A stretch of 64,000 nucleotides of DNA from Promethearchaeota archaeon (GCA_029838195.1 JALGVJ010000006.1:97093-161092); one strand, 5' to 3'. Positions 30,392 through 33,654 are shown, numbered from the stretch's first letter. Program-made: numbers and translations. Notes: generated from the letters alone by a model not told the origin.

Positions 30392-32566
30392 ATGAACCGT
30401 ATTTGCCGGAAAAGAAGTATTCTATTCTGTCTCGTTGTACTTATTTTAATGGGTTTCTTAATAATTCCCGAATGGGGCAAAAAAAAAGAAATAATTGGTC
30501 CAGCTACGGCAAGTCAAGGAGTTAGTTTATTTACTGGAACGGAGACTAATGCCATTTCCATTAATGCAAGCGTATTGCCAAAAATAAATAATAGTGCGTT
30601 AAATTCTGCTTGGAAAGACACTACCATTGATATGATAATTATTACACCCGATAAATCTGGATTCATAAATGCCATTACTCCCCTCATGGAATGGAAAAAT
30701 CAAAAAGGCGTGACAACAATAATTTTATCTAATTTCTCTAAATATGAAGGGAAAGATACTTCGGAAAAAATTAGGAACATGATAAAATTCTATCATGAAA
30801 ATCATGGTACTCAATGGGTCTTACTGGCTGGCGATGCGGAAGAAGATTTAATTCCTATTAGAAAAGTATATAATCCGGACGTCGTGGAAGTTGGTCAAGG
30901 AGAAAGCGAATATGATGATTGGAGTGATTATTATAAACCTACCGATTTCTATTATGCGGATTTAGATGGTACGTGGGATGATAATGGAAATGGAAAATAT
31001 GGTGAATCCGCTCTCTATACAGGAAGTCAAGATGAGATAGAATGGACGCCTGATGTTTACGTGGGAAGATTTCCCGCAAGCAGTGCGAGTGACTTGGAAA
31101 AAATGGTAAATAAGACCCTCCAATATGAGAAGAATCCTTATGTGGGAACATGGATGAGTCGGATGTTATTAGCAGGAGGAGTTTCCTCCCTTTCGCCCTT
31201 GGAAGATGAGGCAAAATTAACAACGTATATTTGGCAACAACAAGTTCTTTCTGAAATGAATTTCACTCATTTATATCGCACGTCTTCTCCCTATGATCCT
31301 CCCACTCCTCCGGAGCCCAATCAACAACAGGGCTTGACGAGTAATAGCTTTAAAAATCATTTAAATCTGGGCTATTCTACTATTTTAATCGCGGGCCATG
31401 GCTTGCCCACCAAATTTAATGATTATTTTGGCGATATTTATACCAGTTCGGATACCAGCACTAATTATTACATGCCCTCCTTGATCTATTCGGACGCCTG
31501 CTCAACAGCCTCCTATGATAAAACTGACAACAATTTAGGAGAAATTCTTATTAAACGAGTAAATTCTGGCGCCATTGGATTCATTGGGGCCTTGAGAATC
31601 ACGTGGTATTTTGAAAATGATGAAGATTTTGAAATGCTAAATCGAGGAAATGCTAAATTATTCTGGGAAGAATTTTTCCTAAATGAAAAATATCAACCGG
31701 GAAGAGCCTTATATGATTCAAAAGTAGCCTACATGAATAGTTCTTACTTCACGGAAGGAAGAGCCTCCATGAATGATGAGTGGGAGAGAAAAAACGTGTT
31801 ATCCTATTGTTTATTAGGAGATCCCGAGATAGACATTTACACGGATCTTCCCATCGGCATAAAAAACCCCTTTAAGGGAACGATTTATGAATGCGAGCGG
31901 CTGTCGGTGGTGATCAGAAATGAGCGAAATGAAATCGTTCCGGATGCAAGAGTGCACATCTATACTGCTGATGGATATTCCCGAACTTTTTATTCAGATG
32001 CTCAAGGAAGAATTGAATTTCAATTACCTGCTGGAAGAAAATTATATAACGTGACCATTACCGGTCATGATATCCTTGCGTCCCACTTCAATTTTCGCAC
32101 TACCTCCGATAAGATCTCTCCAGAATGCGAAAATCCCATTCTCCAGCCTGTAAATCCCACGGTCTCCGATAATATAACTTTAGGAATCAACGCCGAAGAT
32201 CTACAAACGGGTATTGAAAGTGTTCATGCCGTGCTCTCCAGCGATAATTTCAAGAGTTATACTCTCCATGAATTACACCATGCCTCTAACAATTCTAATG
32301 ATGATTATTATCAAGGTAATATCGATAAATTAAAACCCGGAGAATACTCCATCTTAATATTAGCTCGAGATTTCGCCAATAATACCGAAATATATTACAA
32401 CCAATCCCTCATCCTCTCCATTCCAACCCCTATCATTCAACACGTGTTAAATAACTCGGTATATTTCATGTTTGGCTTTTTAGCACTCTCGCTCTATCTA
32501 ATTTATCACCACCTTAAAGCGTTCAAGAGATTTCAAGAAGAACTACCGGAAACCTCAACACCATGA
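30392..32566 (+). CDS. Peptidase C25 (gingipain family), membrane-anchored
   Basis: WVLLAGD, TDFYYADLDG, VGRFP, His-Cys dyad (AGHG, DACST), LLGDP; N- and C-terminal TM segments. Confidence 0.9.
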   Translation: MNRICRKRSILFCLVVLILMGFLIIPEWGKKKEIIGPATASQGVSLFTGTETNAISINASVLPKINNSALNSAWKDTTIDMIIITPDKSGFINAITPLMEWKNQKGVTTIILSNFSKYEGKDTSEKIRNMIKFYHENHGTQWVLLAGDAEEDLIPIRKVYNPDVVEVGQGESEYDDWSDYYKPTDFYYADLDGTWDDNGNGKYGESALYTGSQDEIEWTPDVYVGRFPASSASDLEKMVNKTLQYEKNPYVGTWMSRMLLAGGVSSLSPLEDEAKLTTYIWQQQVLSEMNFTHLYRTSSPYDPPTPPEPNQQQGLTSNSFKNHLNLGYSTILIAGHGLPTKFNDYFGDIYTSSDTSTNYYMPSLIYSDACSTASYDKTDNNLGEILIKRVNSGAIGFIGALRITWYFENDEDFEMLNRGNAKLFWEEFFLNEKYQPGRALYDSKVAYMNSSYFTEGRASMNDEWERKNVLSYCLLGDPEIDIYTDLPIGIKNPFKGTIYECERLSVVIRNERNEIVPDARVHIYTADGYSRTFYSDAQGRIEFQLPAGRKLYNVTITGHDILASHFNFRTTSDKISPECENPILQPVNPTVSDNITLGINAEDLQTGIESVHAVLSSDNFKSYTLHELHHASNNSNDDYYQGNIDKLKPGEYSILILARDFANNTEIYYNQSLILSIPTPIIQHVLNNSVYFMFGFLALSLYLIYHHLKAFKRFQEELPETSTP

Positions 32567-32687
32567 ATGGTGTTAACCGGTTATCCCCTTGTGTAAAAAT
32601 TATTTGCCTTGAACATCACGATTTCGTCCTTTCCTCTTTCTTGATCATGACAAGGTCTCCCCTTACCTCAATTATTTATCGCACGGG

Positions 32688-32702
32688 ATAAAGTTTAATA
32701 AA
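32688..32702 (+). promoter_or_regulatory. BRE/TATA promoter for the 5S rRNA precursor
   Basis: ATAAAG followed by TTTAATAAA (32694-32702), about 35 nt upstream of the precursor stem. Confidence 0.55.
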
Positions 32703-32736
32703 TATCATGTATTTTAATCCTCATAATAATTACCAC

Positions 32737-32909
32737 ACTACACGGCACTTAGCAAGCGTCTGGAAGTTAAACCTTTTCGCGTTGATTCAGTACTGCGATT
32801 GAAAATTCGTGGGAAATATCAAATCTGTAAATTCGTTTACGGTCATAGCGAAGAGGGATAATACCTGGTCCCATCCCGAACCCAGAAAACGCTGGAACTG
32901 TCGTGTGGT
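32737..32909 (+). other. 5S rRNA precursor processing stem with bulge-helix-bulge-like motif
   Basis: Outer stem 32737-32747/32899-32909; AGCGT(32755-59)/ACGCT(32889-93); central 4-bp CTGG(32760-63)/CCAG(32882-85); bulges AAG(32764-66) and AAA(32886-88). Confidence 0.8.
32766..32887 (+). rRNA. rrf: 5S rRNA, circularly permuted gene (3' half 32766-32831, UUCG linker 32832-32835, 5' half 32836-32887)
   Basis: Loop C CCCATCCCGAAC, CATAGC, GTTAA, loop E AGTA/GAA, and helices I-V can all be formed, but with the halves in swapped order. Confidence 0.92.
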
Positions 32910-32932
32910 AAAAATTCCTTTCATTTTAAAGA

Positions 32933-32975
32933 TTTTTATATATTTTTTTCTCATAAAGTGTATCTTTCTTTTTTC
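32933..32975 (+). terminator. Oligo-T tracts downstream of the 5S precursor
   Basis: T5, T7 (32943-32949) and T6 runs follow the precursor stem. Confidence 0.45.
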
Positions 32976-33141
32976 CCAAATATTTTTTAGATGCGTATCT
33001 AGAGTTATTGAATTTAAAGAGGATAAGAATATTTATTTAAGAATAAAATATAAAAACCAATGAATTTAACGTGAATGCTTAATTATTAAACGATAATAAT
33101 AATCAAGTCCGAGAAAAAATGCCGTTAGAAAGGGCCTTTTC

Positions 33142-33654
33142 ATGTCAAACAAAGTAATTATATTTTTTAAATCCATGGGAAGATATTGGTTTCTTTTCTT
33201 ACTTCTTGCTTCCCTCATCGTCTTGTTTTATCATCAACAAGCAGCCTTTATCATGGGTATTATCACGGTTAGCCTTTACTTTCTTTCATTCATGCCTTCT
33301 CTGATTTTTCGGTTTCGCCTCTTAAAAAAAATGAAAAAACACGCAAAAATCGATGATGTCACGTTAGCCAGAATTTCTAAAAAACGCCTTAAGAAAATAA
33401 AAAATTTAATGTTTAAACTGGCAAACCATCAAGAAAAAAAGAGATGGTTGATAATTTATTTTAATAAAAGCTACGTGTTTTATGCTCCTTCCACCGTCAA
33501 GAAAATTAGAGAGCTTCTTCTTGAAGAGGGGGAAAAAAAAGATGAATCGCAAATCTTAAGCAAGTTAAAAGCGCATGATATTAAATCGAAAGAAGAATTA
33601 AGAGCAATTAAAGAAACTCTCATGAAGTTTAAAAAATTAGGGAACAATAAATAA
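33142..33654 (+). CDS. Hypothetical membrane protein
   Basis: Two N-terminal TM helices followed by a basic soluble domain. Confidence 0.7.
   Translation: MSNKVIIFFKSMGRYWFLFLLLASLIVLFYHQQAAFIMGIITVSLYFLSFMPSLIFRFRLLKKMKKHAKIDDVTLARISKKRLKKIKNLMFKLANHQEKKRWLIIYFNKSYVFYAPSTVKKIRELLLEEGEKKDESQILSKLKAHDIKSKEELRAIKETLMKFKKLGNNK

What the first reader, a model, noticed from the sequence alone, without database searches (positions are those of the whole stretch)
32737..32909. Circularly permuted 5S rRNA gene apparently repaired by BHB splicing into a covalent circle
Seen in sequence: 32836-32887 is the canonical 5S 5' half (UUUACGGUCAUAGCGAAGAGG...ACCUGGUCCCAUCCCGAACCCAGAA). It lies downstream of the canonical 3' half, 32766-32831 (GUUAAACCUUUUCGCGUUGAUUCAGUACUGCGAUUGAAAAUUCGUGGGAAAUAUCAAAUCUGUAAA). 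Helix I (CUGUAAA/UUUACGG), normally the free 5'/3' ends, is capped by a UUCG tetraloop. Helix II (GCGAAGAGG/CCUUUUCGC), helix III, loop E and helices IV-V all form. The new ends lie in AGCGU-CUGG-AAG / CCAG-AAA-ACGCU: a 4-bp helix with 3-nt bulges (inner flanking helix relaxed), supported by an 11-bp outer stem. Established: the archaeal splicing endonuclease EndA cuts BHB motifs after the second bulge nucleotide, RtcB ligates the ends, and permuted SRP RNA genes of Thermoproteus are restored by this kind of circularisation. Inference: cuts after 32765 and 32887 release a 122-nt RNA whose ligation gives CCGAACCCAGAA|GUUAAACC, exactly the conserved 5S junction, so the mature 5S would be an obligate circle. 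I know of no described permuted 5S gene, and standard rRNA finders would miss it or call a fragment.
Basis: partly seen in the sequence, partly recalled or inferred. Interest (0 to 1): 0.97.

Follow-up and report, generated by a model that had tools for sequence, protein, structure and literature searches.

The report
Back-to-front 5S rRNA gene, ring-forming
This Asgard (Loki-type) archaeon encodes its only 5S ribosomal RNA with the back part first, between tRNA-splicing-type cut signals, so a normal 5S can arise only by cutting and rejoining the transcript, most likely into a closed ring; this explains why 5S genes seem to be missing from these relatives of eukaryotes.

Summary
Confirmed. Window 32766-32887 is a complete 5S rRNA in rotated order: 3' part, an 8-bp helix I closed by a UUCG loop, then the 5' part. 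Leader and trailer form a bulge-helix-bulge (BHB) motif plus an 11-bp outer stem.

Rfam's 5S model misses it. A profile of canonical 5S genes from the sister family matches the re-ordered sequence full length, and the native sequence only as two swapped halves.

It is the only 5S-like locus in this genome. Two single-contig relatives also lack a canonical 5S.

The layout is present, nearly always as a single copy, in 118 of 131 genomes of the family, and in at least nine other Asgard families. Covariation supports all 5S helices, the BHB helix and the outer helix.

The strongest argument is that relatives carry a second breakpoint inside loop C, or an extra 30-nt loop-C intron. Every one of these layouts gives the same 119-124-nt 5S only if cut and ligated at the BHB bulges.

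EndA and RtcB genes are present. No RNA data exist for this organism, so cleavage, ligation and the ring are inferred.

I found no published archaeal permuted 5S gene. This scan has noted the same class before on other Asgard DNA (85 notes).

The parts
32690..32705 (+). A/T-rich BRE/TATA-like box, the presumed archaeal promoter of the 5S unit
   Evidence: Read from the sequence. Similar A/T-rich boxes lie about 30-40 nt upstream of the outer stem in relatives. This is an inference; the transcription start was not mapped.
32737..32747 (+). 5' arm of the 11-bp outer (processing) stem
   Evidence: Pairs with 32899-32909 in the unconstrained MFE and centroid folds. Relatives have an equivalent distal stem with a different sequence.
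32755..32759 (+). Outer helix of the BHB, leader strand
   Evidence: Pairs with 32889-32893. The three pairs next to the BHB helix are 96-100% paired in 28 sequences and all six outer pairs show compensatory changes.
32760..32763 (+). Central 4-bp helix of the BHB, leader strand (discarded)
   Evidence: Pairs with 32882-32885. It is 100% paired in 28 sequences, and the second pair switches between U-A (14) and C-G (13).
32764..32766 (+). 5' bulge of 3 nt; the predicted cut is after 32765
   Evidence: BHB geometry. The cut position follows the established EndA rule and is required to give the canonical junction. It was not shown experimentally.
32766..32831 (+). 3' part of the 5S: helix II 3' strand, helix V, loop E, helix IV, helix I 3' strand
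   Evidence: Half hit to HMM positions 49-110 of canonical 5S. Covariation in helices II, IV and V.
32832..32835 (+). UUCG tetraloop closing helix I, where a normal 5S has its free ends
   Evidence: 80 of 87 distinct relatives have an 8-bp helix I closed by a 4-nt loop; the loop is UUCG in 44.
32836..32887 (+). 5' part of the 5S: helix I 5' strand, loop A, helix II 5' strand, loop B, helix III, loop C
   Evidence: Half hit to HMM positions 2-52. RF00001 alignment over model positions 1 to about 55.
32882..32885 (+). Central BHB helix, retained strand; the same bases are the 3' strand of helix III in the mature RNA
   Evidence: Helix III pairs in 28 of 28 sequences in the mature register.
32886..32888 (+). 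3' bulge of 3 nt; the predicted cut is after 32887
   Evidence: Ligating 32887 to 32766 gives the junction found uninterrupted in canonical 5S genes of the sister family.
32889..32893 (+). Outer helix of the BHB, trailer strand
32899..32909 (+). 3' arm of the outer stem
32924..32949 (+). Three T runs (32924-27, 32933-37, 32943-49), a likely archaeal oligo-T terminator
   Evidence: Read from the sequence. This is an inference.

Best explanation
This is the organism's single, functional 5S rRNA gene, encoded in circularly permuted order as an independent transcription unit in a 575-nt intergenic gap. In the primary transcript the leader pairs with the trailer (outer stem plus a 5-bp helix). Four leader bases also pair with the 3' strand of helix III. 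Together these present a bulge-helix-bulge motif. The tRNA-splicing endonuclease EndA cuts in both 3-nt bulges, after 32765 and after 32887. RtcB then joins the 2',3'-cyclic phosphate end to the 5'-OH end of the excised 122-nt piece. That ligation recreates the conserved junction between helix III and helix II and frees the helix III strand to pair with its true partner. Because the natural 5S ends are already joined by a tetraloop in the gene, the product is a covalently closed 122-nt ring, which most likely serves as such in the large ribosomal subunit. Shown here: the permuted gene, conservation, covariation, the absence of any other 5S gene, and the presence of the enzymes. Inferred: cleavage, ligation, and the ring as the final form.
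For: There is only one 5S-like locus in a 96.6%-complete genome. There is no canonical 5S in 25 of 25 family genomes, nor in two single-contig genomes of the family. The sister family has canonical 5S at 53-69 bits in 9 of 11 genomes. A covariance model of the permuted core finds a full-length, nearly always single copy in 118 of 131 family genomes at 82-116 bits. In the 5S core, 18 of 25 predicted pairs show compensatory changes. BHB and outer helix: 88.9% of cells are paired against 69.5% in shuffles (0 of 500 shuffles as high) and 12-42% when slid. A strict BHB (4-bp helix and two 3-nt bulges) is found in 40 of 44 distinct type A genes, with predicted products of 119-124 nt and two of 150-151 nt that carry an extra insert. 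A second layout, broken inside loop C, has a strict BHB in 22 of 22 genes, and its ligation gives exactly the loop C that is contiguous in type A. A third layout carries a 30-nt BHB intron that leaves a 7-nt last exon, which can be kept only if it is ligated at both ends. Other Asgard families show the same layout with textbook BHBs and 10-15-bp covarying outer stems. The re-ordered sequence matches canonical 5S full length. The circular fold gives helices I-IV. EndA (three paralogues) and RtcB are encoded. A precedent exists for this exact mechanism: the Thermoproteus SRP RNA (PMC4731332).
Against: No RNA data exist for this organism or its close kin in the runs on offer. The inner flanking helix of the BHB is not formed by leader and trailer at the 5' cut site, so cleavage needs an endonuclease that accepts relaxed motifs. 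The helix next to the BHB is only 3 bp in 14 of the 40 strict type A genes and 11 of the 22 type B genes. Nothing here shows that the ring, rather than a re-opened or nicked form, sits in the ribosome. Known archaeal 5S maturation does not use EndA (PMC10515664, PMC12918454).
Confidence: 0.65

Rival explanations
1. Ring as an intermediate only. The transcript is cut and ligated as above, but the ring is then opened in or near the helix I cap, giving a linear 5S with ordinary ends. Permuted tRNA genes of Cyanidioschyzon and circular pre-16S/23S rRNAs behave this way.
For: Re-linearisation of circular rRNA intermediates is the classical archaeal pathway (PMC10515664; PMC12918454). Some relatives carry about 30-nt inserts in the cap (L019), so the cap tolerates extra sequence.
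Against: The cap is a minimal, stable 4-nt loop on an 8-bp stem in 80 of 87 distinct genes, and is UUCG in 44. This looks selected for closure, not for cutting. No conserved A/U-rich or other processing motif lies there.
Confidence: 0.17
2. Cut but not joined. EndA, or another nuclease, trims leader and trailer, and the 122-nt linear permuted RNA, held together by helices II and III, is the working 5S. This would resemble the linear permuted 5S of brown-algal mitochondria.
For: Linear permuted 5S rRNAs work in stramenopile mitochondria (PMC4267664). The linear permuted fold is stable, at -31.7 kcal/mol.
Against: Both cut sites are kept in register, so that ligation gives the exact canonical length in all three gene layouts. 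Type B would leave a nick inside the most conserved loop. The intron-bearing layout would lose its 7-nt exon, which is the 3' strand of helix III, without ligation. EndA products are the natural substrates of RtcB, which is encoded here.
Confidence: 0.1
3. Relic or silent copy. The locus is a rearranged pseudogene, and the real 5S lies in an unassembled part of the genome or is too divergent to be detected.
For: The genome is a 94-contig MAG with 7.9% estimated contamination, and rRNA genes often fail to assemble.
Against: It is a single conserved copy in 118 of 131 family genomes, with compensatory changes in every helix. There is no canonical 5S in two single-contig relatives or in any of 25 family genomes. 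The conserved 5S loops are invariant.
Confidence: 0.03
4. Assembly artefact that joined two partial 5S copies.
For: None beyond the general risk in metagenome assemblies.
Against: Independent Logan contigs from two studies reproduce the locus with no differences. The same order appears in hundreds of independently assembled genomes.
Confidence: 0.01

Closest known systems
Permuted, circularised SRP RNA gene of Thermoproteus tenax / T. uzoniensis (Plagens et al. 2015, eLife, PMC4731332)
   Same: An essential, universal structured RNA is encoded in permuted order with no canonical gene in the genome. Leader and trailer form a BHB, the tRNA-splicing endonuclease cuts it, and RtcB-type ligation gives a functional circular RNA.
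   Different: The RNA here is a ribosomal RNA (5S), not SRP RNA. The spread is far wider: many Asgard families, not one genus. Several alternative breakpoints and extra introns occur within one family. Circularisation is shown for SRP RNA by RNA-seq, Northern blot and in vitro cleavage, but is not shown here.
Circularly permuted tRNA genes (Cyanidioschyzon merolae, Soma et al. 2007, as cited in PMC4267664; Thermofilum pendens, from my own knowledge)
   Same: The 3' half is encoded before the 5' half, there is a BHB at the junction, and maturation passes through a circular RNA made by the splicing machinery.
   Different: In tRNAs the ring is an intermediate that RNase P and tRNase Z open to give normal ends. 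Here the natural ends are replaced by a tight tetraloop and no opening signal is visible.
Permuted mitochondrial 5S rRNA of brown algae and other stramenopiles (Valach et al. 2014, PMC4267664)
   Same: A 5S rRNA whose helix I is a closed hairpin and whose ends lie elsewhere in the molecule; standard models miss it.
   Different: The mitochondrial RNA is permuted in the final linear product, with an open three-way junction and no splicing. Here a BHB predicts cutting and re-joining, which restores the normal continuous sequence.
Circular pre-16S/23S rRNAs, circular 23S in archaeal ribosomes, and permuted 23S of Pyrococcus/Thermococcus (PMC12918454, PMC7758197, bioRxiv 2026.03.23.713588)
   Same: EndA cuts at a BHB in an rRNA processing stem and the ends are ligated into a ring. 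In some lineages the ring, or a permuted derivative, is what the ribosome carries.
   Different: Those genes are co-linear with the rRNA, and any permutation arises at the RNA level. These papers state that 5S is not processed this way. Here the permutation is in the gene, and ligation is needed to restore the sequence.

Membership tests
5S rRNA (Rfam RF00001) | Three-domain fold with helices I-V | tested here: met
   The circular and re-ordered folds give helices I, II, III and IV. In 21 sequences, 18 of 25 predicted pairs have compensatory changes, including long-range helix II and helix V.
5S rRNA (Rfam RF00001) | Conserved loop C, loop A and loop E sequence blocks | tested here: met
   Invariant columns in A1 and A3. 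The re-ordered sequence matches an HMM of canonical 5S genes full length at 47.9 bits.
5S rRNA (Rfam RF00001) | The genomic sequence reaches Rfam's gathering score (38 bits) | tested here: not met
   26.1 and 18.4 bits for the two halves. The failure comes from the gene order, not from divergence. Infernal could not be run on a re-ordered sequence with these tools.
5S rRNA (Rfam RF00001) | Free 5' and 3' ends at the base of helix I | tested here: not met
   Helix I is closed by a 4-nt loop, in the window and in 80 of 87 distinct relatives.
5S rRNA (Rfam RF00001) | Part of the large ribosomal subunit | not testable with these tools
   No RNA or ribosome data. Indirect support only: it is the sole 5S-like gene.
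BHB substrate of the archaeal splicing endonuclease | Central helix of exactly 4 bp | tested here: met
   32760-63 pairs with 32882-85. It is 100% paired in 28 sequences, with a U-A/C-G switch, and 4 of 4 pairs form in 22 of 22 type B genes.
BHB substrate of the archaeal splicing endonuclease | Two 3-nt bulges on opposite strands flanking that helix | tested here: met
   32764-66 and 32886-88. The strict geometry holds in 40 of 44 type A and 22 of 22 type B genes.
BHB substrate of the archaeal splicing endonuclease | Flanking helices on both sides (hBHBh') | tested here: inconclusive
   The outer helix is present and covaries. No inner helix forms between leader and trailer strands in the window: the 5' bulge runs into helix II and the other strand comes out of loop C. 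The motif is therefore relaxed. More distant Asgard families have long, perfect outer stems.
BHB substrate of the archaeal splicing endonuclease | Cleaved by EndA, with ends joined by RtcB | not testable with these tools
   The enzymes are encoded: two full-length EndA paralogues plus one with the catalytic domain only, and one RtcB at 553 bits.
Permuted genes restored by circularisation (Thermoproteus SRP RNA type) | Gene segments in swapped order, and no co-linear copy in the genome | tested here: met
Permuted genes restored by circularisation (Thermoproteus SRP RNA type) | RNA reads across the ligation junction, or exonuclease-resistant RNA | not testable with these tools
   No RNA run holds the locus. 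Only DNA contigs could be laid.
Mitochondrial permuted 5S (mtPerm-5S, Valach 2014) | Final RNA is linear and permuted, with no splicing signal at its ends | tested here: not met
   A conserved, covarying BHB brackets the RNA, and three gene layouts converge on one sequence only after ligation.

The most novel reading that the evidence does not exclude
In most Asgard lineages the 5S rRNA inside working ribosomes is a covalently closed ring made by the tRNA-splicing machinery. Because that machinery repairs the transcript, the gene is free to be broken at different places and to pick up mini-introns. One family shows at least three layouts, and layouts differ even within a genus. A universal rRNA gene has thus become dependent on RNA splicing in the closest archaeal relatives of eukaryotes.
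Probability: 0.55. Interest if true: 0.95.

Novelty: new variant of a known kind. Interest (0 to 1): 0.9.

Why it matters
5S rRNA is universal, and its gene has been treated as co-linear in all archaea, bacteria and nuclei. Authors of closed Asgard genomes reported that no 5S gene could be predicted (Wu et al. 2022, PMC8813620), and this finding gives the reason. It implies that rRNA annotation and genome-quality criteria that ask for a 5S gene fail systematically for most Asgard archaea.

It would add 5S to the RNAs matured by EndA and RtcB, and would add a ring-shaped rRNA whose circularity is obligatory rather than optional. The co-existence of several breakpoints and mini-introns that all resolve to one mature sequence is a natural experiment. 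It shows how a splicing system can buffer, and then lock in, gene rearrangements, which bears on ideas about the origin of eukaryotic RNA processing.

It is directly testable with RNA from enrichment cultures or sediments.

Tried and rejected
- **RNA evidence.** The look-up of sequencing runs listed no RNA holder for 32650-33000. Only two DNA runs could be laid, and they show presence, not expression.
- **Infernal on the re-ordered sequence.** The tools search only the window and loci, so I replaced this test with an nhmmer profile of nine canonical 5S genes from the sister family.
- **ARAGORN and Rfam at gathering threshold.** Neither found anything in the window. The other permissive Rfam hits (snoR53, cow-rumen-1) have E values of 3.7 and 5.4 and are chance.
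- **Pattern scan of genome contigs.** Locus L144 ('Bacteroides') is a chance match with no model hit. L138 ('Nanopelagicaceae') is a genuine Loki-type permuted 5S on a mislabelled contig.
- **First regex classification.** It started a few type A genes 14 nt too far upstream, so three of the four 'no BHB' cases are parsing artefacts. The fourth (L051) has one mismatch in the 4-bp helix.
- **Canonical 5S genes of the sister family.** I looked for a BHB around them and saw none by eye. I did not pursue it.
- **Bacterial promoter/terminator scanner.** Not used, because it does not apply to archaea.
- **Complex prediction and structure tools.** Not used, because no protein question was open.
- **Literature.** Searches for 'circular 5S rRNA' (0 papers), 'permuted 5S' (only Valach 2014), and 5S + Asgard + circular/permuted/BHB found no description of an archaeal permuted 5S gene. 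The library lacks most subscription journals.

Full report
**What is in the window.**
- 32766-32831 carries the 3' two-thirds of a 5S rRNA.
- 32832-32835 is a UUCG loop.
- 32836-32887 carries the 5' third.

Rfam at its curated threshold finds no RNA family anywhere in the 64-kb window, and ARAGORN finds no tRNA. In permissive mode the 5S model gives two adjacent sub-threshold hits, 32835-32932 at 26.1 bits and 32738-32833 at 18.4 bits. Each aligns well over only one half of the model.

I could not give Infernal a re-ordered sequence. Instead I built a profile HMM from nine canonical 5S genes of the sister family. The re-ordered window sequence matches it full length (positions 3-110, 47.9 bits, E 1.6e-16). 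The native DNA gives two half hits in swapped order: positions 2-52 at 32836-32888, and positions 49-110 at 32763-32824.

**Folding.** The 180-nt precursor 32733-32912 folds to -55.1 kcal/mol (z -3.48; none of 200 shuffles folds as well). Without any constraint it forms:
- the 11-bp outer stem (32737-47 with 32899-909);
- the 5-bp helix next to the BHB;
- the 4-bp central helix (32760-63 with 32882-85);
- the capped helix I, the 9-bp helix II and helix IV.

Forcing strict 3-nt bulges costs 0.2 kcal/mol. The excised 122-nt RNA, folded as a circle, gives helices I (capped), II, III and IV (-28.5 kcal/mol). In the precursor the 3' strand of helix III is held by four leader bases. Only after excision can it pair with its true partner.

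**It is real and it is the only 5S.** Logan contigs from two different studies reproduce the locus with no differences: a vent metagenome covers 32613-32937 in one piece and a sediment metagenome covers 32693-33010 in two.
- The window's own genome (94 contigs, 96.6% complete) has no other 5S-like sequence.
- None of 25 genomes of the same family has a canonical 5S above the cut-off.
- 9 of 11 genomes of the sister family do, at 53-69 bits.
- Two single-contig genomes of the family also lack a canonical 5S. Their best RF00001 hit is the permuted locus itself.

**Conservation.** A blastn search found the same order in 17 of 24 family genomes. I aligned 21 cores (A1). RNAalifold predicts 25 pairs, and 18 of them have compensatory changes. 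These include the long-range helix II, which joins the two swapped parts, and the capped helix I.

A covariance model of this core (R1) finds one full-length copy, at 82-116 bits, in 118 of 131 genomes of the family. It finds weaker full-length copies in two other families of the order and in one family of another order of the class.

A pattern scan of GTDB species genomes returned 90 loci, nearly all titled Promethearchaeota or Promethearchaeia archaeon, i.e. Asgard of the Loki type. In 87 distinct genes, helix I is an 8-bp hairpin in 80. Its loop is UUCG in 44, UUUG in 15 and UUAG in 12.

**The BHB.** In 28 aligned type A precursors (A3):
- The 4-bp helix is paired in 100% of cells, and its second pair switches between U-A (14) and C-G (13).
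- The three outer pairs nearest the helix are 96-100% paired, each with up to five pair types.
- Overall, 88.9% of cells pair, against 69.5% in column shuffles (0 of 500 shuffles reach this) and 12-42% when the partner strand is slid by 1-3 columns.

A strict BHB (4-bp helix, 3-nt bulges on both strands, outer helix of at least 2 bp) is found in 40 of 44 distinct type A genes. Predicted products are 119-124 nt, and two that carry an extra insert are 150-151 nt. Three of the four failures are parsing artefacts of my regex.

**Three layouts, one product.** This is the strongest argument for cut-and-join. Within this one family I found the following.
1. **Type A**, as in the window, is broken between helix III and the junction to helix II.
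2. **Type B** is broken inside loop C. The leader's four bases pair with the 5' strand of helix III instead. All 22 of 22 distinct genes have a strict BHB. Cutting after the second bulge base on each side and ligating gives a 120-121-nt RNA (one gene with an extra insert gives 151 nt). Its loop C is exactly the sequence that is contiguous in type A genes.
3. **Type A with a 30-nt insert in loop C** occurs in about 19 distinct genes. The insert has its own 4-bp helix, two 3-nt bulges and a covarying inner hairpin. Its removal restores loop C and leaves a last exon of only 7 nt, which can be kept only by ligation at both ends.

Different layouts occur in the same genus code: g7 and g2 hold both A and B, and g11 holds A, B and the intron form. 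A gene that is cut at different places in close relatives yet always yields the same RNA after BHB processing is hard to explain unless that processing happens.

**Beyond the family.**
- A family of the same order (G026) has the break in loop B. Two genera of another family (G027, G029, G031) and one genome of another order (G153) have type A-like genes.
- In a sample of 150 further genomes of the phylum, R1 also hits five more families. All five are type A, with textbook BHBs and perfectly covarying outer stems of 10-15 bp. One of them is on a contig titled Odinarchaeota.
- In the same phylum sample, canonical 5S above Rfam's cut-off is confined to 7 of 27 families (49 of 151 genomes). Eleven families sampled with three or more genomes have none. 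R1 was trained on one family, so its misses elsewhere say little.

**Machinery.** The genome encodes two full-length EndA paralogues (N-terminal plus catalytic domain, 202 and 199 aa), a third with the catalytic domain only (106 aa), and one RtcB at 553 bits. Several EndA subunits fit a heteromeric enzyme. Such enzymes are known to accept relaxed BHBs (established knowledge; Randau 2005 and Yoshinari 2009, as cited in PMC4731332). That matters because the inner flanking helix is missing at the window's 5' cut site.

**Context.** The gene lies alone in a 575-nt gap between two + strand ORFs, 30392-32566 and 33142-33654. An A/T-rich TATA-like box sits at 32690-32705, and T runs follow at 32924-32949. 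It is therefore probably its own transcription unit. The mechanical ORF 32809-33063 overlaps the RNA and is most likely spurious.

**Comparison with what is known.**
[quoted passage not shown] There, RNA-seq, Northern blots and in vitro EndA cleavage showed a BHB-dependent circular, functional RNA (PMC4731332).
- Permuted tRNA genes use a circular intermediate that is re-opened.
- A permuted 5S has been described only in stramenopile mitochondria, as a linear permuted product without splicing (PMC4267664).
- Recent work on archaeal rRNA circularisation states that 16S and 23S, but not 5S, are processed through rings (PMC12918454). 5S maturation in Methanococcus uses A/U-rich-motif endonucleolytic cuts, not EndA (PMC10515664).
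- Wu et al. 2022 wrote of their closed Asgard genomes that 5S genes 'could not be predicted' (PMC8813620).
- Six full-text searches found no report of an archaeal permuted 5S gene. The library lacks most subscription journals.

**Earlier notes of this scan.** The same class has been noted 85 times in at least 69 other Asgard genomes, including the loop-C intron. Some notes claim environmental RNA with the re-joined form in Heimdall-group and Atabeyarchaeia genomes. I did not test those claims and they are not counted as evidence here.
- the family-wide census;
- the closed-genome control;
- the contrast with the canonical sister family;
- the second breakpoint inside loop C, which converges on the same product.

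**What is not shown.** Transcription, cleavage, ligation and the final form are all inferred. I put the chances as follows:
- that this is the functional 5S gene, about 0.97;
- that it is cut and ligated at the BHB, about 0.85;
- that the ring itself is the ribosomal form, about 0.65 overall.

The main rival is re-opening at the cap, and a smaller one is a nicked linear form.

Noticed in passing
L012, L033, L038, L043, L098 and 17 more loci (genomes G018, G005, G014, G020, closed genome G100): A second gene layout (type B) in the same family. The break lies inside loop C, and the leader pairs with the 5' strand of helix III. All 22 of 22 genes have a strict BHB, and ligation restores the same loop C as in type A. 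Types A and B occur within the same genus codes (g2, g7, g11).
   Followed up: yes
L010, L015, L017 (genus g4); L052, L053, L063, L072, L084, L088, L095, L113 and others: Type A genes carrying a 30-nt insert in loop C. The insert has its own 4-bp helix, two 3-nt bulges and a covarying hairpin, so it is a probable BHB mini-intron. It leaves a 7-nt last exon. Earlier notes of this scan saw it too.
   Followed up: partly
L043 (G020) and L171 (G101), helix IV loop; L019 (G006), helix I cap: About 30-nt inserts at two further places in the 5S. About nineteen genomes have cores of 131-133 nt instead of about 102. They may be further mini-introns or expansion hairpins; plain folding did not settle it.
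   Followed up: partly
L055 (G123), just after the core: A loop C insert that repeats the loop B to helix III segment of the same gene. It could be a partial duplication on the way from one breakpoint to another.
   Followed up: no
L032 (G026, another family of the order): A permuted 5S with a third breakpoint, in loop B between helix II and helix III. I did not resolve its BHB register by eye.
   Followed up: partly
L138 (DATKTW010000142.1) and L144: A contig titled 'Nanopelagicaceae bacterium' carries a 104-bit Loki-type permuted 5S, so it is probably misbinned. The 'Bacteroides' locus is a chance pattern match.
   Followed up: yes
L084, L089, L094, L097, L145, L157, L160: Contigs titled Hod-, Hermod-, Thor- or Odinarchaeota carry 5S genes scoring 99-113 bits with the model of this Loki-type family. 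L097 is the same contig as a genome that GTDB places in this family. The submitters' phylum labels look unreliable.
   Followed up: partly
window 32809-33063 (+): An 84-aa GTG-start ORF overlaps the 5S RNA and its trailer. It is most likely spurious and a trap for gene callers.
   Followed up: no
G000 contigs C1:152191-152421, C8:28388-28642, C53:22042-22209 (L186-L188): Three splicing-endonuclease paralogues: two with N-terminal plus catalytic domains and one with the catalytic domain only. This suggests a heteromeric enzyme.
   Followed up: partly
run X1, contig record 3 (910 nt), matching window 32825-32876: The same vent sample holds a relative's permuted 5S, with 5 differences over 52 nt. 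Its downstream letters look like the loop-C intron form.
   Followed up: no
L025 (G032, single-contig genome of the sister family): Three tandem canonical 5S genes about 375 nt apart, against the single permuted copy typical of the window's family.
   Followed up: no
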